The notes beneath the pieces were generated by a model. The model saw only the letters and a list, made by a program, of their open reading frames with translations, was not told the origin of the DNA and ran no database searches. A stretch of 64,000 nt of DNA from positions 32,001-96,000 of IMG/VR virus record IMGVR_UViG_3300045988_166055. One strand, given 5' to 3'. This DNA is from a virus. The translations under genes were made by a program, and so were the position numbers. Every line of letters starts with the position of its first letter. Position 1 is the first letter of the stretch. This document shows positions 26,446-58,092 of the stretch, piece by piece.

Positions 26446-26958
26446 ATGAATTATATTAAAATATCTAAATGCGACATTGCAAATGGACTAGGATTCAGAG
26501 TTGTCCTTTGGGTATCAGGATGTAATCATAATTGTAAAGGCTGTCATAATCCTCAGACCCATGACTATTCAGCTGGAAAAGTATTTGATAACGATGCTTT
26601 AGAATATCTTATCAAATGCCTTTCAAAGCCTTATATCAGAGGCCTAACTATTTCTGGAGGCGATCCAATGTCTCCTAGAAATAGATCAAAAGTGATTGAT
26701 ATATGCAGAGCAGTAAAGCATGATTTTGGAAGTAAGAAAGATATCTGGATATACACCGGAAACGAGTTTAACTTGAGAGAATATTTCTTTCCCGTAGATG
26801 TAGTAGTTGATGGACCATATATAGAAAGCCTTCGTGACATTTCGCTTCCTTTTAGAGGTAGCTCAAACCAAAGGATAATTGATGTGAAGAAGACACATGA
26901 GGAAACGAACACACTTCTAGATCAGAGAATCGTTATTTACAATGTAGACAATAATTAA
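26446..26958 (+). CDS. nrdG: anaerobic RNR activating protein (radical SAM)
   Basis: 'GCNHNCKGCHN' CxxxCxxC cluster motif and 'GLTISGGDP'. 170 aa, immediately downstream of nrdD. Confidence 0.9.
   Translation: MNYIKISKCDIANGLGFRVVLWVSGCNHNCKGCHNPQTHDYSAGKVFDNDALEYLIKCLSKPYIRGLTISGGDPMSPRNRSKVIDICRAVKHDFGSKKDIWIYTGNEFNLREYFFPVDVVVDGPYIESLRDISLPFRGSSNQRIIDVKKTHEETNTLLDQRIVIYNVDNN
26928..26950 (+). promoter_or_regulatory. Motif A copy (AATCGTTAT-N6-TGTAGACA) inside the 3' end of nrdG
   Basis: Bipartite motif with one mismatch in the second box. It lies 43 nt upstream of ATG 26993. Confidence 0.4.
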
Positions 26959-26987
26959 CACATCAATAGAATTCAAATTCGGAGGTA
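26952..26987 (+). repeat. 36-nt perfect direct repeat, copy 1
   Basis: TAATTAACACATCAATAGAATTCAAATTCGGAGGTA is identical to 31548..31583. It spans the upstream stop codon through the SD of the next gene. Confidence 0.95.
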
Positions 26988-28183: not shown

Positions 28184-28374
28184 TGCGGTTAACCATTATC
28201 TTCAAGGACGAATTTGAGGAATACATGAAAAAGCAATTCGGAAATTTCACGAATCCGCAAGTCTATGGCGTGAAATCTGTACACATAGAAGATGGGTATC
28301 TTTGTTCCACGGTTTTTGAAACGAAAAGGTGGAACTTGGCTAATATTTCCAGATTTTACTGTGAGGAGGGCTGA
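28183..28374 (+). CDS. hypothetical protein
   Basis: ATG 28183 overlaps the upstream stop (TGATG) and follows AAGGTGG. Confidence 0.5.
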   Translation: MRLTIIFKDEFEEYMKKQFGNFTNPQVYGVKSVHIEDGYLCSTVFETKRWNLANISRFYCEEG

Positions 28375-28376
28375 CA

Positions 28377-28553
28377 ATGGCTGAATTGAAGTCTTGTCCA
28401 TTCTGCGGAGCAGAAGCTAAACCGATGGGTGAAATTTTAAGAACTCAGAATTCCGGAGAATGGAAGCATTCGTATAACGGGTGCATTCTTTCTGGTTATG
28501 TGATTAGAGAAAATAAGATAGAAGCATGGAACAGGAGGGCTAGCAATCGCTGA
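28377..28553 (+). CDS. Lar-family-like zinc-ribbon protein (restriction alleviation family)
   Basis: 58-aa ORF, below the ORF-track cutoff, translated by hand: MAELKSCPFCGAEAKPMGEILRTQNSGEWKHSYNGCILSGYVIRENKIEAWNRRASNR. 'CPFCG' near the N-terminus plus C-terminal 'EAWNRR' is the Lar-family signature as I recall it. GAGGAGGG RBS. Confidence 0.55.
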   Translation: MAELKSCPFCGAEAKPMGEILRTQNSGEWKHSYNGCILSGYVIRENKIEAWNRRASNR

Positions 28554-28606
28554 ATACATCTATCGTCCGGATGCATCTATGTCTCGTCAAGTGAGGGAAC
28601 TGAGAT

Positions 28607-28936
28607 ATGAAAATGAAGAAAGTATACAAATATGAATGCTCAAACTGGTTCAATCCTTATAGCAGACAGCGTTACCCTGTGTCCATCAATAGTGTTAAGT
28701 ACATCGAAATTGTAGGAAAGAAAACTCCAAACGGAATGCTGTGTGTATCTGCCGAGGATGTGGATGGGCATTTCTGCACTATTCTGAAGTGCTATAAGAG
28801 CACCAAGGGTAAGCGCTATTGCGTCTTTGGTAAGCATCGCCTTTATGAAGGCTATTATGGTCCTGTCCAACTTGTGGGCGTGCCCATTAGCGTTCGTTCG
28901 GCCATTGTTGGCTGCGGTGCAAGGATTGAAGATTAG
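28607..28936 (+). CDS. hypothetical protein
   Basis: 109-aa ORF with a GAGGGA RBS. The segment is GC-richer and has a mirror antisense ORF. Confidence 0.55.
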   Translation: MKMKKVYKYECSNWFNPYSRQRYPVSINSVKYIEIVGKKTPNGMLCVSAEDVDGHFCTILKCYKSTKGKRYCVFGKHRLYEGYYGPVQLVGVPISVRSAIVGCGARIED

Positions 28937-29040
28937 AGAGGGAGGGATGTGCGCCATCATTGAATTGAAACCGTTTCCGAAGTGTAGACTTAGGCCGTAT
29001 ATTCCTTATTATGAGTTTAGATTTTATGTTGAGGTGCAAA

Positions 29041-29310
29041 ATGTGGATCAAACGAAGAGATTATGAAAAGCTGAAAGAGGTTAGTGGTAAATATTCTGAT
29101 GTTATGAAAGCAATTCATAACGCAGAAAATGGATCGGTAACATTTTGTAATTTTGGAGTGTTTATGCCTGATAGTGTTTATAATTCCTATTCCGATCTTA
29201 TTGCTAGTCGTACGAAAGAAGTTAGCAACCTAAAAGAAAAAATATTGGATTTACAGGCAGGTTTTGAATACTATAAGAATAAGTGCGGAGAACTGATGGC
29301 TGATGAATGA
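29041..29310 (+). CDS. hypothetical protein
   Basis: An internal ATG of track ORF 29011..29310 follows GAGGTG. The C-terminus is coiled-coil-like. Confidence 0.5.
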   Translation: MWIKRRDYEKLKEVSGKYSDVMKAIHNAENGSVTFCNFGVFMPDSVYNSYSDLIASRTKEVSNLKEKILDLQAGFEYYKNKCGELMADE

Positions 29311-29956
29311 TATTAGAGTTTTTAAGCCATGCACCTTAATGCCATGTAAAAAATGCGGCTATGATAATGGTAGAATAATACCATACGGACATTTTCAAAG
29401 CAATCAAACTACATATCGTATTTCTTGTCCAAGATGCAGTTATTGCACAAAAGAAAAAGCAACATTGAAAGAAGCAACCGAAGCATGGAACAGGAGGACT
29501 ATAATGAGTTGTAATTGTAATAAAATTCAGAATTTAAGAATCAAGAAAATGTTTCATGATGCTATTGAGCCTAAAAGAGGGACAGACGGATCAGCAGGTT
29601 ATGATCTATTTGCTTGTGATGCAACATTGATCCTTCCTGGTAAGTCTTGTATGATTACTACAGGAATTGCAATGGAAATTCCTAATGGATATGTAGGGCT
29701 TGTTTTTGCAAGATCTGGACTTGCAACAAAGCAAGGTCTTCGTCCTGCTAATTGTGTTGGCGTAATCGACAGTGATTATAGAGGAGAAATTAAGGTCTGC
29801 TTGTATAATGATTCATATGATGTCAGAGAAGTTAACTTCGGAGATAGAATTGCACAAATTGTAATTGTACCATATATTTATCCAAATCTTGAAGTAGTAG
29901 AAAACTTATCCGATACTGAACGCGGTGATGGTGGATTTGGATCGACTGGTAAGTAA
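29303..29956 (+). CDS. in-frame Lar-like zinc ribbon + dUTPase fusion reading frame
   Basis: The first 67 aa carry 'CKKCG...CPRCSYC...TEAWNRR' (second Lar-like domain). No stop codon separates it from the dUTPase domain. Confidence 0.5.
   Translation: MNDIRVFKPCTLMPCKKCGYDNGRIIPYGHFQSNQTTYRISCPRCSYCTKEKATLKEATEAWNRRTIMSCNCNKIQNLRIKKMFHDAIEPKRGTDGSAGYDLFACDATLILPGKSCMITTGIAMEIPNGYVGLVFARSGLATKQGLRPANCVGVIDSDYRGEIKVCLYNDSYDVREVNFGDRIAQIVIVPYIYPNLEVVENLSDTERGDGGFGSTGK
29504..29956 (+). CDS. dut: dUTP diphosphatase (trimeric dUTPase)
   Basis: All five dUTPase motifs are present: 'GSAGYDL', 'ARSGLA', 'GVIDSDYRGEI', 'DRIAQIV', 'RGDGGFGSTG'. AGGAGG (29492-29497) lies 6 nt before the internal ATG 29504. 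Confidence 0.9.
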   Translation: MSCNCNKIQNLRIKKMFHDAIEPKRGTDGSAGYDLFACDATLILPGKSCMITTGIAMEIPNGYVGLVFARSGLATKQGLRPANCVGVIDSDYRGEIKVCLYNDSYDVREVNFGDRIAQIVIVPYIYPNLEVVENLSDTERGDGGFGSTGK

Positions 29957-29963
29957 ATTTGAA

Positions 29964-29987
29964 GGGGCAGAGAAATCTGCTCCTTTT
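29964..29987 (+). terminator. terminator candidate after dut
   Basis: GGGGCAG-AGAAAT-CTGCTCC gives a 7-bp stem including one G-U pair, followed by TTTT. Confidence 0.5.
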
Positions 29988-30029: not shown

Positions 30030-30058
30030 TTGACTTTTCAAAAGAATAGTTATATAAT
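30030..30058 (+). promoter_or_regulatory. canonical sigma-A/sigma-70-type promoter
   Basis: TTGACT (30030-30035), a 17-nt spacer, then TATAAT (30053-30058). Located 59 nt upstream of ATG 30117. Confidence 0.65.
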
Positions 30059-30116
30059 ATACACAATAACAAAGGCCCTCAACACATCAAGAAGGTTCAA
30101 ACCTGGAGGTAACAAA

Positions 30117-31307
30117 ATGGCTCAGTACGCAATTTACGAAGAGAATTTCGATCGTCTTCAGAAGAAGATCACGACAATCGCAAACAAGTGCAAGAAGTTC
30201 GGATGTGATTTCAAGTTTGAGGTAGTCGGAAGTGAAATACGAAAGGTAACAGATGACGAAGGAAATCAGAGAAACTGCAGATTCATTCTTGTAGAAGCCG
30301 AAGGAACTGCTAAGCTCAATGATTGGGAGTTCATCGCATCTATCGAACATAAGGAAGGCGGAAACATCATCCGTACTTTCAACAAAGACGCAGAGATTCC
30401 TACTCGTTACTTCAATTCGGATCCGATTTGCGAACATTGCAACAGTAAGCGTCGTCGTAGCAAGACCTGCCTCGTTCGTAACACTGTCACAGGTGAGTGG
30501 AAGCAGGTAGGCCTTTCTTGTCTGAAGGATTTCACTTGTGGGCTCAGCGCAGAAAATGTAACAAGATACATTAGCTTCTTCGATAACTTGATCGAAGGTC
30601 AGGCTCCTTATTCCGGAAGTTGGGGCAAGCCTTATTGGTACATTTCTCAGTATCTTCCTTACGTAGCAGAATGCGTCAAGCGTTTTGGATACTTCAACAG
30701 CTACAGCAACTATCCTACTTCAACCAGAGCTTTCACCTACTTCGAGGTTGACGCATTAGATAGAAAGTTCATGGGTAGCGAATCCATCAAGCAGGAGATG
30801 ATGGATTGCGATTTTGAAGTTACCGAAGAAAGCAAGAAGCTTGCAGAAGAAACTATCAATTGGTGCAAGCACCTTTCTAACGAGACTGATCCTTACATGC
30901 ACAACCTGGAGGTTATCTTTTTCAACGATTACTTCGCAAGAAGTGAGCTCGGATTCGTTACTTCTTCAATCAAGGCCTACATGCGTCACAAAGATATCGA
31001 AGACAAGAAGCGCAAAGAGGCTGCTGAAAGAGCAAAGGCTGCTCAGAAGTCTTCTCATAAGTACAACGAAGGCGACAAGGTACAATTTGAAGTTGTCAAC
31101 TTCAAGTACATTACTTCTTTCGATAACATGTACGGAACCACTCATCTTTACAAGTTTGAAGACAAAGAAGGTAACGTCTACTCTTGGTTCGCTTCTTCTG
31201 GGTGTGATGAAGAAAAAGTAAAGTCTATCAAGGGTACAGTTAAGTCCAACGGCGAATACAACGGAGTAAAGGAAACTTGCCTTACTCGTTGTAGAGTTAG
31301 CTACTAA
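30117..31307 (+). CDS. hypothetical protein with central zinc ribbon, K/E-rich linker and C-terminal OB-fold-like domain
   Basis: GGAGGT RBS before ATG 30117; the track start TTG 30030 is actually the -35 box. Contains 'CEHCNSKRRRSKTCLV...VGLSCLKDF'. The C-terminal 'GDKVQFEVVNFKYITSFDNMYGTTHLYKFEDKEGNVYSWFASS...IKGTVKSNGEYNGVKETCLTRCRV' has an OB-like pattern. GC-rich codon usage. Confidence 0.65.
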   Translation: MAQYAIYEENFDRLQKKITTIANKCKKFGCDFKFEVVGSEIRKVTDDEGNQRNCRFILVEAEGTAKLNDWEFIASIEHKEGGNIIRTFNKDAEIPTRYFNSDPICEHCNSKRRRSKTCLVRNTVTGEWKQVGLSCLKDFTCGLSAENVTRYISFFDNLIEGQAPYSGSWGKPYWYISQYLPYVAECVKRFGYFNSYSNYPTSTRAFTYFEVDALDRKFMGSESIKQEMMDCDFEVTEESKKLAEETINWCKHLSNETDPYMHNLEVIFFNDYFARSELGFVTSSIKAYMRHKDIEDKKRKEAAERAKAAQKSSHKYNEGDKVQFEVVNFKYITSFDNMYGTTHLYKFEDKEGNVYSWFASSGCDEEKVKSIKGTVKSNGEYNGVKETCLTRCRVSY

Positions 31308-31331: not shown

Positions 31332-31550
31332 ATGACTCGTTATCACTATATAAAGAAGATTATGTATCTCCAGTACCGGTTGCTGATGCTCCCTACTTGT
31401 ATGAACCGCCATTACTGTACTTCATATGCCAAGTGGAACTCTCGGATTCCTTATCTTCCTTTTCCAAATGGCTCTCAGACTTATCAGGAGGATTGGGACA
31501 GAACTTGTAAAGAGATCAGACGTATTAAAGGATTGAAAGATCTAAAGTAA
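31332..31550 (+). CDS. hypothetical protein
   Basis: 72-aa ORF with a GAAAGGAAGG RBS. Confidence 0.5.
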   Translation: MTRYHYIKKIMYLQYRLLMLPTCMNRHYCTSYAKWNSRIPYLPFPNGSQTYQEDWDRTCKEIRRIKGLKDLK

Positions 31551-31583
31551 TTAACACATCAATAGAATTCAAATTCGGAGGTA
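31548..31583 (+). repeat. 36-nt perfect direct repeat, copy 2
   Basis: Identical to 26952..26987. It again spans a stop codon through the SD of the next gene. Confidence 0.95.
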
Positions 31584-31588
31584 ATATT

Positions 31589-32125
31589 ATGTCTAACGGA
31601 TTTTCTGTTTATCCTTGCAGATGTGGTCGTATTCATATGATTAGTTGGGGCCTTGTCGATGAGGCTTGCGAAAAGAATATGGATATCATCCATATTTGTC
31701 AGCGATGCGGAAGAATGATTAGGATTGGTGGAGATTCGTTCTATGACGAATACGAAAAAGTATACGGATACTCTGTATACTCGTATGACATGACTTTGAA
31801 TGATCATGTAGTAAACATTGATCCGTCTTCTGACTATTCCAGCGAATGCAAACCTATTCTGAAAATCATTTCCGAGCCCGGAATTTGCATACCTATGGAG
31901 ACAGGCGGATATGCAACCGAATACTTCTCCGGAATTTTTAGAGATGGAACTAGGCCTTATTTCAGTCGAAAGGATCCGAATGAAACTTACGAAGATTTCA
32001 TCCGAAAGTGGGACATTGATGCCTCAACTGTCAACATGAATCTTTTGAAGAGATTGAATGATAAAGAAAAGTTAGACTACATCAAGAAACATATTCGTTT
32101 TGATCAGTTCGACTGGAGTAAGTGA
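31589..32125 (+). CDS. hypothetical protein with N-terminal zinc ribbon
   Basis: 178-aa ORF using the SD in repeat copy 2. Contains 'CRCGRIH...CQRCGRM'. Confidence 0.65.
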   Translation: MSNGFSVYPCRCGRIHMISWGLVDEACEKNMDIIHICQRCGRMIRIGGDSFYDEYEKVYGYSVYSYDMTLNDHVVNIDPSSDYSSECKPILKIISEPGICIPMETGGYATEYFSGIFRDGTRPYFSRKDPNETYEDFIRKWDIDASTVNMNLLKRLNDKEKLDYIKKHIRFDQFDWSK

Positions 32126-56277: not shown

Positions 56278-58092
56278 ATGGGTGGACACATAAAGGTGCC
56301 GGATAATGTGTTTAGAAAATGCGAAATTTGCGGAGATACATTTCATCCTAATACATATAGACAAAGAACATGTGGAAAGCCAAAGACAAAAACTTGTCCC
56401 GTTTGCGGAAAACAATTTGAATATTCATGCAAACCCGATTATATTAAAACCACTTGTTCAAGGAAATGCGCGGATATACTTGCTAAGAAAGTTAGAAACG
56501 ACAATTCGGAAAAGCTAACTAGAAAATGTGCATATTGTGGAAAAGAATTTACGCCTAAGACAAAAAAAGATATTTATTGTAGTGGCCCACACTACAAGAA
56601 TTGTGAAGTATGCGGAAAAGAATTCGAGTTTGATGTAAGAGGATATTCTAACATAAAGACTTGTTCTAAAGAATGTAGATATAAATTATCATCTAGAAAC
56701 AAAGACATTGAATCTATGATTCGGAATCATAAGAAAACAATGACTGAAAAGTACGGTGTTGATCAACCTATGCACATTCCTGGAGTAATAGAAAAGATCA
56801 AGGAAACAAATCGAGAAAGGTACGGATCAGATTGGTATACGCAAACTTCGGAATACAAGAAATCAGTTGAAGAAACTTCATTATCCAGATATGGAGTAAA
56901 ACATTTTCTTTCAAGCGAAGATGTTAAGAATAAAAGAAGAGATACATGTAAAGAAAAATATGGATTCAGCAACTATGCTTTTCTTATGGTTGATCACCCT
57001 GAAAAACTTGAAAAATGGATTGAATTCAGAAAAGACGGAAAGAAGTACATATCAGAGAACTATTCAGAAAAGCCTACTAGAAATCAGCTATCAGAAGATT
57101 TAGGAGTATCATATTCTACTATTTCTCAAGAAATACGACTGAAGGGCTTAGATGATTATGTAATGTGTAATGTATCTTACATGGAAGACGAAATAGTAGA
57201 CGAGCTGAGGAAACTGATTCCTGATGTTCAAATCATTCGAAGATGTAAGAATTTAATAACACCGTATGAATTAGATATTTATCTACCTGAATATGAAGTT
57301 GCAATAGAATGCAATCCAACTTATACGCATAATTCGTCTACAAGTAGTTTCACAAATAAACCAAAGCCTATTAGATACCATCAAATGAAAACAGAAATGT
57401 GCGAAAGAAAAGGTGTATTTCTTTTTCATGTATTTGGTTATGAATGGTACAGCAGAAAAGAAATCCTACTTAGTATGATAGGTAATCTTTTAAGATGTAA
57501 TAGAAATAGGGTATATGCTCGAAAATGCAAACTAATTGATGTTTCGTCTAATGAATCTAGATCATTCCTAGAATGTAATCATAGACAAGGAGAAGCGTCA
57601 GCATCAATTAAGCTAGGACTAACTTACAATGACGAGTTAGTTAGTTTGATGACATTTGGAAAGCTAAGAGGAACAATTGGCACAGATAAATCGGATACAT
57701 CTAATTGCTGGGAATTAGTACGGTTTTGTTCTAAGTTAGGCACAAATGTTGTTGGTGGCGCAAGCAAGCTATTCAAATACTTTGTTGATAATTACAATCC
57801 AGAAGAAATAAGATCATTTTCAGATAGGGCTCATACAAAGGGAAATTTGTACTATAAATTAGGATTCCATGAATTGCGAAGATCTGACCCCGGGTATGTT
57901 TGGGTTGAACTTGCTACAGATAATCCTGTTAATAGAGTAACTGTACAGAAATCAAATATAAAATCCTTTCTTCATGATGATTCAATTGACCTTTCTCTTA
58001 GTGAATCGGAAATAATGATTCAACACGGTTTCGTAAAGGTATTTGATTCAGGCACAATAACATGGCAGTTGAATAAACAAAAATCGTTATAA
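56278..58092 (+). CDS. multidomain homing-endonuclease-like protein (4 FCS-type zinc ribbons + YG(V) repeats + PD-(D/E)xK/Vsr-like core + C-terminal domain)
   Basis: Four 'CxxCGxxF...(T/Y)CS..C' units lie in aa 16-135. 'EKYGVDQP', 'RERYGSDWY', 'LSRYGVKHF' and 'KEKYGFSN' are repeats. 'PYELDIYLPEYEVAIECNPTYTHNS' resembles the Vsr/DUF559-type endonuclease core. The C-terminus is paralogous to 17922..18578(-). Confidence 0.6.
   Translation: MGGHIKVPDNVFRKCEICGDTFHPNTYRQRTCGKPKTKTCPVCGKQFEYSCKPDYIKTTCSRKCADILAKKVRNDNSEKLTRKCAYCGKEFTPKTKKDIYCSGPHYKNCEVCGKEFEFDVRGYSNIKTCSKECRYKLSSRNKDIESMIRNHKKTMTEKYGVDQPMHIPGVIEKIKETNRERYGSDWYTQTSEYKKSVEETSLSRYGVKHFLSSEDVKNKRRDTCKEKYGFSNYAFLMVDHPEKLEKWIEFRKDGKKYISENYSEKPTRNQLSEDLGVSYSTISQEIRLKGLDDYVMCNVSYMEDEIVDELRKLIPDVQIIRRCKNLITPYELDIYLPEYEVAIECNPTYTHNSSTSSFTNKPKPIRYHQMKTEMCERKGVFLFHVFGYEWYSRKEILLSMIGNLLRCNRNRVYARKCKLIDVSSNESRSFLECNHRQGEASASIKLGLTYNDELVSLMTFGKLRGTIGTDKSDTSNCWELVRFCSKLGTNVVGGASKLFKYFVDNYNPEEIRSFSDRAHTKGNLYYKLGFHELRRSDPGYVWVELATDNPVNRVTVQKSNIKSFLHDDSIDLSLSESEIMIQHGFVKVFDSGTITWQLNKQKSL

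What the first reader, a model, noticed from the sequence alone, without database searches (positions are those of the whole stretch)
28377..29956. Two Lar-family-like zinc-ribbon paralogs, one unannotated (58 aa) and one fused in frame to dUTPase
- An ORF below the 60-aa track cutoff lies at 28377..28553: MAELKSCPFCGAEAKPMG...NKIEAWNRRASNR. It has the CPFCG start and the AWNRR C-terminal signature I associate with Lar-type restriction-alleviation proteins.
- The first 67 codons of ORF 29303..29956 are a second copy of this architecture (CKKCG...CPRCSYC...ATEAWNRR). They run without a stop into a complete five-motif dUTPase.
- The WNRR codons (UGG AAC AGG AGG) themselves create a perfect AGGAGG 6 nt upstream of the dUTPase Met (29504).
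- The locus could therefore yield both a free 150-aa dUTPase and a 217-aa Lar-dUTPase fusion.
- Phage dUTPases are known to moonlight as signalling proteins. A fusion to a putative anti-restriction module would be new.
Basis: partly seen in the sequence, partly recalled or inferred. Interest (0 to 1): 0.62.

Follow-up and report, generated by a model that had tools for sequence, protein, structure and literature searches.

The report
Lar-like zinc ribbon fused to dUTPase
In a complete 143-kb human-gut phage, loss of a single base has joined a small Lar-type zinc-ribbon gene in frame to the dUTPase gene; the fusion is real and shared by one young clade, but it is a rare departure from a junction that phages normally build to keep the two frames apart, so it is more likely a tolerated accident than a new device.

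Summary
Both ORFs, the in-frame run-on and the AGGAGG 6 nt before the dUTPase ATG are present. Both small domains match Lar models over their full length (TIGR03655 E~1e-5), but score below the curated cut-offs.

The fusion is not an error: at least 8 independent assemblies carry it intact. It is a recent, single event. Sister lineages have a 7-nt spacer (ACCTATA or GCCTACA) where the window has ACTATA. There Lar2 ends ...WNRR(A/T)YNEL* 11 nt inside dut, as a separate overlapping gene. All 6-nt loci form one shallow clade.

Recombination between the two 18-nt GAAGCATGGAACAGGAGG boxes has also produced Lar1-dUTPase fusions (206 aa). More distant relatives have no Lar upstream, and their dut has its own SD.

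Family-wide, WNRR encoded as AGGAGG serves as the SD of the next gene. In IMG/VR samples, out-of-frame spacers are common at Lar-like 3' ends (5 nt 42/106, 7 nt 84/109, 8 nt 47/110). In-frame spacers are almost absent (6 nt 1/101, 9 nt 1/94).

The Lar gene at this site is often broken in relatives (A5/A7, T4, a nonsense codon). Most likely this is a tolerated one-base deletion, and free 150-aa dUTPase is still made. Function is untested. Interest is modest.

The parts
28377..28553 (+). Lar1: free-standing 58-aa Lar-like zinc ribbon (CPFCG knuckle, probable H31/C36 second ligand pair, C-terminal EAWNRR, tail ASNR*)
   Evidence: TIGR03655 E=1e-5, phrog_599 E=1.8e-7. The identical protein is on record on several contigs (8 read; one search lists 5).
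28521..28542 (+). Copy 1 of the GAAGCATGGAACAGGAGG box (codes EAWNRR and contains AGGAGG)
   Evidence: the repeat finder family D2: 21 of 22 nt identical to 29480-29501, spacing 959 nt. It is the recombination partner that gives the 206-aa Lar1-dUTPase in L005.
28533..28568 (+). Decayed 7-nt-type junction after Lar1. AGGAGGGCTAGCAATCGCTGAAT resembles the common linker AGGAGGGCTGACAATGGCTGAAT (WNRRADNG* overlapping an MAE... start), with the ATG mutated to ATC.
   Evidence: the repeat finder family D1 (75% identity to 28364-28399). Compare the junctions of L045 and L049.
28607..28936 (+). 109-aa Cys-rich ORF of unknown function. Part of the 959-nt block that is missing from the Lar1-dUTPase genomes.
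   Evidence: no family hit. Called as a gene in relatives.
29011..29310 (+). 99-aa ORF (called as 89 aa in relatives) of unknown function. Its stop TGA 29308-29310 overlaps the Lar2 ATG (ATGAATGA), which suggests translational coupling.
29303..29503 (+). Lar2 domain: 67 codons, four-Cys zinc ribbon (CKKCG...CPRCSYC) plus a C-terminal helix ending EAWNRR. It has no stop codon of its own.
   Evidence: AF2 pLDDT 81-88 within the fusion and 89.5 alone. Relatives occur as free 63-66-aa proteins.
29319..29323 (+). T5 run in Lar2 codons 6-7. It is T4 in L057 and L077, which frameshifts the N-terminus.
29348..29353 (+). A6 run inside the first zinc knuckle (CKKC). It is A7 in L053 and L054 and A5 in L066 and L067, which frameshifts Lar2.
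29480..29501 (+). Copy 2 of the EAWNRR/AGGAGG box
29492..29503 (+). Shine-Dalgarno AGGAGG (29492-29497, which are the two Arg codons) plus the 6-nt spacer ACTATA. Sister lineages have 7 nt (ACCTATA or GCCTACA).
29504..29956 (+). dut: complete 150-aa trimeric-type dUTPase with its own SD and ATG. It also forms the C-terminal part of the 217-aa fusion ORF.
   Evidence: PF00692 E=2.7e-34; TIGR00576 158 bits. All relatives start at the same codon.
29961..29986 (+). Terminator-like hairpin (11-bp stem followed by a U-rich tract) that closes the dut transcription unit
   Evidence: -16.8 kcal/mol, z = -4.3.

Best explanation
Two divergent Lar-like zinc-ribbon genes sit in the mosaic accessory block between nrdG and the tail genes of a complete 143.5-kb human-gut myovirus-like phage. 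Its host is probably a Bacillota member (inference).

In this family, the conserved C-terminal WNRR is normally encoded ...TGGAACAGGAGG. The AGGAGG serves as the Shine-Dalgarno of the next gene. That gene's ATG lies 5, 7 or 8 nt downstream in another frame, and the Lar ORF stops a few codons into it.

In the ancestor of the window's clade, Lar2 stood in this way before dut with a 7-nt spacer (ACCTATA). Loss of one C left ACTATA. That put Lar2 in frame with dut and removed its stop.

Expected products (inferred):
- Ribosomes that start at the Lar2 ATG must now make a 217-aa Lar2-linker-dUTPase.
- Ribosomes that start at the unchanged, unstructured SD and ATG make the normal 150-aa dUTPase.
- An N-terminal extension on a flexible linker should be tolerated by a trimeric dUTPase.

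Because the Lar gene at this position is dispensable, the fusion persists as a near-neutral variant rather than a selected device. The shared 18-nt EAWNRR/SD box also acts as a recombination site. Deletion between the two boxes gave the Lar1-dUTPase (206 aa) genomes.

Shown: the anatomy, the one-base difference, the clade structure, the family-wide frame rule and the recurrent inactivation. Inferred: the direction of the change, production of both isoforms, and neutrality.
For: Junction sequences:
- Window and L055-L064: AGGAGG-ACTATA-ATG. L005: ATTATA.
- L013 and L065-L074: GCCTACA. L053 and L054: ACCTATA.
- With 7 nt, Lar2 ends WNRR(A/T)YNEL* at a TAA inside dut codons 3-4.

Clade structure:
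- In a tree of dut plus 1.2 kb downstream, all 6-nt loci form one shallow clade (support 1.0, branches <=0.007). The 7-nt lineages are deeper and paraphyletic.

The fusion is not an artefact:
- It is intact in independent ENA and Logan assemblies. 22 contigs carry the window's exact dut.
- 206-aa Lar1 fusions are on about 12 contigs, up to 143 kb.

Family rule:
- RR is encoded AGGAGG in 21 of 33 related Lar 3' ends, with the next start 7 nt later in most and none in frame.
- IMG/VR samples, Lar-like fraction by spacer: 5 nt 42/106, 6 nt 1/101, 7 nt 84/109, 8 nt 47/110, 9 nt 1/94.

Dispensability:
- A7, A5 and T4 frameshifts and a TAG nonsense codon occur in the Lar gene before dut.
- L001-L009 have no Lar, and dut has its own GGAG.

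Structure and accessibility:
- AF2 gives two confident domains joined by a low-confidence linker at residues 67-73.
- The SD/ATG region is unstructured.
Against: - The fused ORF is intact in most sampled members of its clade. L059 carries five amino-acid changes in Lar2 without breaking it. That is compatible with continued constraint.
- The clade has been sampled in many independent metagenomes, so the fusion is at least not strongly deleterious.
- The near absence of in-frame junctions elsewhere could mean fusions are normally purged. If so, the survival of this one needs explaining.
- No expression data exist.
- The direction of the indel rests on outgroup and majority reasoning in a recombining, mosaic region.
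Confidence: 0.68

Rival explanations
1. The fusion is a functional two-isoform gene. The phage deliberately makes both free dUTPase (from the internal SD and ATG) and a Lar2-dUTPase. In the latter, the trimeric enzyme displays three Lar-like modules, which would give avidity or localisation to an anti-defence or DNA-binding activity, or link nucleotide sanitising to it.
For: - The fusion ORF is intact in at least 8 independent assemblies, with conserved zinc ligands.
- A second fusion type (Lar1-dUTPase, 206 aa) is found on about 12 contigs with five sequence variants.
- AF2 predicts two well-folded domains on a flexible linker.
- Lar2 has a coupled start that overlaps the upstream stop.
- Other phage trimeric dUTPases are known to moonlight, for example in SaPI derepression (PMC5593958, PMC5608427).
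Against: - A single one-base event in a very shallow clade.
- The Lar1 fusions inherit the same junction, so they are not independent.
- The nearest sisters keep the genes separate.
- Lar in the fused position is also found broken: L060 has a nonsense codon, and L057 and L077 have T4.
- No independent Lar-dUTPase fusion was found among 5.8 billion proteins, within word-search sensitivity.
- In-frame junctions are about 1% of samples across the family.
- The dUTPase has no extra motif or insertion like the moonlighting staphylococcal enzymes. It is a standard 150 aa.
Confidence: 0.17
2. Lar2 is a non-expressed relic. Only its 3' end matters, as the leader that carries the dut Shine-Dalgarno. 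Little or no translation starts at 29303, so in practice only the 150-aa dUTPase is made.
For: - The GGAG before the Lar2 ATG is 12 nt away, which is a poor spacing.
- Gene callers in 22 contigs called only the 150-aa dut and left the Lar2 stretch uncalled.
- Frameshifted Lar2 copies keep the EAWNRR/AGGAGG 3' end intact (L053, L054, L066, L067).
Against: - The Lar2 ATG overlaps the stop of the upstream gene (ATGAATGA), which is a standard coupling arrangement.
- Lar2 is conserved as a free 63-66-aa protein, with all ligands, in many phages at 59-87% identity.
- Most copies in the window clade are intact.
Confidence: 0.12
3. The in-frame run-on is a sequencing or assembly error in this record.
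For: A one-base difference in a short CC run could arise as an error.
Against: - The same 6-nt spacer occurs in independent ENA and Logan assemblies from different runs and assemblers. These include ERZ27311767, ERZ27274574, ERZ27258630, ERZ28657159, SRR5818523, SRR7750086, SRR31966116 and SRR32829908.
- The state co-segregates with a well-supported clade.
Confidence: 0.02

Closest known systems
Lar / RalR of the E. coli K-12 Rac prophage (Pfam PF14354 Lar_restr_allev; NCBIfam TIGR03655 anti_R_Lar; NF007260 RalR)
   Same: - A small zinc ribbon of about 55-65 aa.
- An N-terminal CPFCG-type knuckle and a C-terminal helix ending (A/E)WN(K/R)R.
- Carried by phages and prophages in accessory or early regions.
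- Full-length alignment to the family profiles.
   Different: - Scores are below the curated cut-offs. The RalR equivalog model gives only 17.7 bits against a cut-off of 113, so these are not orthologs.
- Lar1 has only three Cys plus a His.
- Lar2 has no stop and is joined to dUTPase.
- The activity of the family is itself unsettled. Restriction alleviation is from King & Murray 1995 (my own knowledge). A non-specific DNase toxin of a type I TA pair is reported in PMC4041452. Nothing has been tested here.
Homotrimeric dUTPases (PF00692 / TIGR00576), including the phage Duts that moonlight as SaPI derepressors (phi11, 80alpha)
   Same: - The 150-aa C-terminal part is a complete dUTPase well above the family cut-offs.
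- The staphylococcal phage enzymes show that a phage Dut can carry a second role (PMC5593958, PMC5608427).
   Different: - There is no extra motif VI or insertion here.
- The additional element is an N-terminal zinc-ribbon domain that arose by a frame-joining deletion.
- There is no evidence of any signalling role.
Overlapping, translationally coupled gene junctions in which the SD of a gene lies inside the 3' end of the upstream gene
   Same: The normal Lar junction (WNRR = AGGAGG, start 5, 7 or 8 nt later, Lar stop inside the next gene) is a textbook overlap and coupling layout. The sister lineages of the window have it at dut.
   Different: - Here the SD coincides with the family's signature protein motif.
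- It forms a conserved 18-nt box that also serves as a recombination site.
- In the window clade the overlap has collapsed into an in-frame fusion.
N-terminal isoforms of cellular dUTPase (human DUT-N and DUT-M, from one gene; my own knowledge)
   Same: They are a precedent for long and short dUTPase forms that differ only by an N-terminal extension while the catalytic core stays active.
   Different: - The human isoforms arise from alternative promoters and exons, and the extension is a targeting peptide.
- Here the two forms would arise from two start codons on one mRNA, and the extension is a folded zinc ribbon.

Membership tests
Lar family (TIGR03655 / PF14354) | Profile match at or above the curated cut-off | tested here: not met
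   - TIGR03655: 25.7 bits (Lar1) and 25.9 bits (Lar2) against 39.6.
- PF14354: 19.9 and 16.4 bits against 28.6.
- E-values are significant (1e-5 to 1e-6) and the alignments span profile positions 1-55 of 55.
- All 18 relatives hit TIGR03655 (best E = 1.9e-9).
- Conclusion: Lar-like, but not formal members by threshold.
Lar family (TIGR03655 / PF14354) | N-terminal CxxC(G) zinc knuckle | tested here: met
   CPFCG in Lar1 and CKKCG in Lar2. The CxxC is invariant in alignment A1.
Lar family (TIGR03655 / PF14354) | Second pair of zinc ligands that completes a zinc ribbon | tested here: inconclusive
   - Lar2 has CPRC, and AF2 gives a ribbon with pLDDT 89.5.
- Lar1 has only H31 and C36 as candidates.
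- Metal binding was not tested.
Lar family (TIGR03655 / PF14354) | C-terminal helix ending in the (A/E)WN(R/K)R signature | tested here: met
   - EAWNRR is present in both copies.
- W, N and the second R are invariant in A1.
- AF2 places a helix at residues 55-64 of the fusion.
Lar family (TIGR03655 / PF14354) | Alleviates type I restriction (or DNase activity, as reported for RalR) | not testable with these tools
   This needs plating or biochemical assays. Only the Rac protein has been characterised (PMC4041452).
Trimeric dUTPase (PF00692 / TIGR00576) | Full-length profile match above the cut-off, with the conserved motifs | tested here: met
   - PF00692: 118 bits against 22.
- TIGR00576: 158 bits against 102.55.
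- NF001862: 149 bits against 103.
- AGYDL, ARSG, GVIDSDYRGE, RIAQ and RGDGGFGSTG are visible.
Natural Lar-dUTPase fusion proteins (as a family) | The same architecture in independent, diverged lineages | tested here: not met
   - Only the window's own cluster and the P0001 cluster (Lar1-dUTPase, same junction) were found.
- 39 IMG/VR Lar1 and Lar2 relatives all stop 2-10 residues after WNRR.
- tblastn hits that seemed to span both domains were upstream read-through of ordinary dut frames.

The most novel reading that the evidence does not exclude
The Lar-dUTPase fusion is adaptive. The phage makes free dUTPase from the internal start and also a trimer-displayed Lar-like module. That combination would give an anti-defence or DNA-targeting benefit and would explain why this clade alone escapes the otherwise strict avoidance of in-frame Lar junctions. 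A weaker but broader novelty is the family-wide rule itself. The Lar signature WNRR is co-opted as the SD of the next gene, with frame-avoiding spacers, and it forms a portable recombination linker.
Probability: 0.15. Interest if true: 0.6.

Novelty: new variant of a known kind. Interest (0 to 1): 0.33.

Why it matters
The two genes themselves are ordinary. Lar-like zinc ribbons are among the commonest small accessory genes of phages (this scan alone has 789 notes on them in at least 746 genomes), and dut is a standard nucleotide-metabolism gene.

The fusion shows how one base in an SD-ATG spacer turns an overlapping gene pair into a two-domain protein, and that such a variant can spread through a natural phage clade.

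The more useful result is general. In Lar-like genes, the signature motif WNRR is encoded as AGGAGG and serves as the ribosome-binding site of the following gene. Spacers of 5, 7 or 8 nt are common and in-frame spacers of 6 or 9 nt are almost absent. This helps annotation in two ways. Small Lar genes and their overlapping neighbours are often miscalled or dropped, and here 22 contigs left Lar2 uncalled. It also suggests that either a free Lar C-terminus or unfused downstream proteins are under selection.

If the fusion did prove functional, it would be a new kind of moonlighting phage dUTPase.

Tried and rejected
- tblastn of the 217-aa protein against 50,697 phage records gave hits that seemed to cover both domains (MT837454, MellowYellow, phiEcoM-GJ1). 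Inspection showed ordinary dUTPase genes whose frame is open a little upstream, or a different upstream gene, and no Lar domain. Rejected.
- tblastn of Lar2 alone against phage records gave no match. Lar1 gave only Rhizobium phage 16-3 p066 and one faecal contig. There is no cultured relative.
- Sequence search of a Lar profile against PDB gave only spurious or generic zinc-finger hits. Foldseek of the AF2 Lar2 model gave no hit with E < 0.3 (YaiA, Rpb9-like and NrdR zinc ribbons). There is no structural precedent to lean on.
- The idea that the two Lar copies are a recent tandem duplication is rejected, because only EAWNRR aligns.
- The promoter and terminator scan found nothing between Lar2 and dut, so there is no separate transcription unit.
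- dN/dS within the fused clade was considered. There are too few substitutions (4 non-synonymous and 2 synonymous by eye between the window and L013 haplotypes printed) to be informative.
Only the fractions within each sample were used.
- The single metagenome scan added only two loci.
Full report
**What is there.** The window is bases 32,001-96,000 of a complete 143,504-bp virus record with direct terminal repeats. GC content is 33-40%. It encodes a tail sheath, a baseplate wedge and an endolysin-containing protein, and NrdD and NrdG lie just upstream of the finding. Relatives come from human gut or faecal metagenomes. The best named cellular dUTPase hits are from Bacillota and Lachnospiraceae, and the phage uses strong AGGAGG ribosome sites, so a Bacillota host is likely. 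That is inference only.

- Lar1 at 28377-28553 (58 aa).
- A 217-aa ORF at 29303-29956, whose first 67 codons form a second zinc ribbon.
- No stop before a complete dUTPase that begins at ATG 29504.
- AGGAGG at 29492-29497, which forms the two Arg codons of WNRR, followed by the 6-nt spacer ACTATA.

**Are they Lar-like?** Both small domains align over the whole length of the Lar models.

| Model | Lar1 | Lar2 | Curated cut-off |
|---|---|---|---|
| TIGR03655 | E = 1e-5, 25.7 bits | E = 9.3e-6, 25.9 bits | 39.6 bits |
| PF14354 | E = 8.6e-4, 19.9 bits | E = 0.011, 16.4 bits | 28.6 bits |
| phrog_599 | E = 1.8e-7 | E = 1.4e-5 | none |

All scores are below the curated cut-offs. In an alignment of 18 relatives, every member hits TIGR03655 (best E = 1.9e-9), and the CxxC knuckle and W-N-x-R are invariant. 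AlphaFold2 gives a confident zinc ribbon plus a C-terminal helix (pLDDT 89.5). No solved structure resembles it significantly by sequence or fold. I therefore call them Lar-like, not formal family members.

They are not recent paralogs. BLASTP aligns only EAWNRR. The DNA nevertheless shares an exact 18-nt box, GAAGCATGGAACAGGAGG (21 of 22 nt). The genome has no further Lar-like locus. The dUTPase part is unambiguous (TIGR00576, 157-158 bits against 102.55).

**What relatives show.** Four arrangements occur among close relatives of the dut gene.

1. *No Lar upstream.* L001-L009 (85-92% dUTPase identity, contigs of 100-130 kb) have an unrelated 75-aa gene, a TAA, a GGAG and then the 150-aa dut.
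2. *Separate, overlapping genes.* L013 and L065-L074 (spacer GCCTACA) and L053 and L054 (spacer ACCTATA) have Lar2 directly before dut with a 7-nt spacer. Lar2 then ends ...WNRR(A/T)YNEL* at a TAA inside dut codons 3-4.
3. *Lar2 in frame.* The window and L055-L064 have ACTATA (6 nt). The fusion is intact in independent ENA and Logan assemblies. 22 contigs carry the window's exact dUTPase. Gene callers there called only the 150-aa dut and left a 194-nt gap where Lar2 lies.
4. *Lar1 in frame.* L005, and the cluster members P0137, P0141, P0144 and P0147 (about 12 contigs, up to 143 kb), have Lar1 joined directly to dut (206 aa). The 959 nt between the two 18-nt boxes is missing.

So the fusion differs from the separate-gene state by a single base (ACCTATA against ACTATA). 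A tree of dut plus the downstream 1.2 kb puts all 6-nt loci in one shallow clade (support 1.0, internal branches <=0.007). The 7-nt lineages are deeper and paraphyletic. This fits one recent deletion, followed by box-to-box recombination that produced the Lar1 fusions.

**The junction is a family-wide design.** Among 33 distinct candidate WNRR-type 3' ends from IMG/VR relatives, RR is encoded AGGAGG in 21 cases and AGGAGA in 5. The next gene's start lies 7 nt later in most cases, always out of frame, and Lar stops 2-10 codons later. None is in frame.

I then sampled IMG/VR for TGGAACAGGAGG + N(k) + ATG.

| Spacer k | Frame | Matches at a Lar-like 3' end | Of those, ATG opens an ORF >= 40 aa |
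|---|---|---|---|
| 5 | out | 42/106 | 42 |
| 6 | in | 1/101 | 0 |
| 7 | out | 84/109 | 77 |
| 8 | out | 47/110 | 38 |
| 9 | in | 1/94 (dubious) | 1 |

The three-base periodicity shows that using WNRR as the SD of the following gene is the norm. In-frame junctions are almost never kept. The window clade is therefore a rare, derived outlier. Lar1's own tail (GCTAGCAATCGCTGA, reading ASNR*) looks like a decayed copy of the commonest linker GCTGACAATGGCTGA (ADNG* overlapping an MAE... start), with the ATG mutated to ATC.

**Is the Lar gene at this site needed?** It is often broken:
- The A6 run in the first zinc knuckle is A7 in L053 and L054 and A5 in L066 and L067.
- The T5 run near the N-terminus is T4 in L057 and L077.
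- Lar1 in the fused L060 carries a TCG-to-TAG nonsense codon.
- Several lineages lack it altogether.

The Lar2-type domain is otherwise promiscuous. It occurs free (63-66 aa), in tandem with another Lar domain (P0149, L016), and at the C-terminus of unrelated proteins (P0150-P0152).

**Mechanism proposed.** The anatomy and its evolutionary origin are shown. The following is inferred:
- Lar2's ATG overlaps the stop of the upstream gene (ATGAATGA), so it is probably translated by coupling.
- With no stop codon, those ribosomes must produce Lar2-linker-dUTPase.
- AF2 predicts two independent, confident domains joined by a low-confidence linker at residues 67-73.
- The dut SD and ATG are unchanged and lie in unstructured RNA, so free 150-aa dUTPase should still be made.
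- A strong hairpin terminator follows dut.

I rate a tolerated, near-neutral one-base deletion at about 0.68, an adaptive two-isoform gene at about 0.17, an untranslated relic leader at about 0.12, and an artefact at about 0.02.

**Comparison with the known.** The closest family is Lar/RalR of the Rac prophage. It is the only characterised member, and its function is disputed: restriction alleviation against a DNase toxin (PMC4041452). Moonlighting staphylococcal phage dUTPases (PMC5593958, PMC5608427) carry an extra motif that is absent here. No independent Lar-dUTPase fusion was found in the 5.8-billion-protein collection, within word-search sensitivity, nor in annotated phage records.

**Limits.**
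- The IMG/VR counts are sample fractions without phylogenetic correction.
- The region is mosaic. A 36-nt intergenic box is repeated at 26952 and 31548, so tree-based polarity is provisional.

**Verdict.** It is a new architectural variant of two known kinds of gene. It is most likely incidental, and it comes with a modestly interesting general rule about Lar gene junctions.

Noticed in passing
window 26952-26987, 31548-31583 (perfect copies) and 30076-30111 (69% identity): A 36-nt RBS-containing intergenic box (TAATTAACACATCAATAGAATTCAAATTCGGAGGTA) brackets the 4.6-kb block that holds the small Cys-rich genes, both Lar genes and dut. In L001-type relatives the 178-aa gene (window 31589-32125) follows nrdG directly. 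The block therefore looks like a cassette inserted or permuted by recombination at these boxes.
   Followed up: partly
window 29348-29353 (A6) and 29319-29323 (T5); L053, L054, L066, L067, L057, L077: Homopolymer length varies in Lar2 across natural populations (A5, A6, A7; T4, T5), giving frameshifted copies in independent samples. In the T4 variants, a short 11-codon ORF ends at a TAATG that overlaps the next in-frame Met. Whether this is decay or contingency-type switching is unknown.
   Followed up: partly
L016 2501-2875; protein P0149: Tandem Lar2-Lar ORFs occur, with two Lar-like domains in one 127-204-aa frame. The first WNKR is encoded AAGAGG and runs straight into a CPFCG knuckle. This is another way Lar junctions collapse into fusions.
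   Followed up: no
L002 and L004 (nrdD product 1041 aa); L007 (nrdD split into 423 + 297 aa): In some relatives the anaerobic ribonucleotide reductase gene nrdD carries an insertion with a faint GIY-YIG hit, or is called as two genes. This suggests a mobile intron, intein or homing endonuclease that is absent from the window's 743-aa nrdD.
   Followed up: no
window 30030-31307: The listed TTG 30030 start is probably the -35 box of a near-consensus promoter (TTGACT-17-TATAAT, 11 of 12 matches). Relatives' gene calls give a 396-aa product, which corresponds to ATG 30117 (phrog_2319, unknown function).
   Followed up: partly
window 28364-28399 against 28533-28568: The linker AGGAGGGCTGACAATGGCTGAA precedes Lar1, although the upstream 70-aa gene is not Lar-like (it ends ...YCEEG*). 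The same linker follows many Lar genes in other phages. It behaves as a portable gene-junction sequence.
   Followed up: partly
window 56278-58092: A 604-aa ORF has a strong homing/HNH endonuclease hit (phrog_3339, E = 4e-102) among the structural genes.
   Followed up: no
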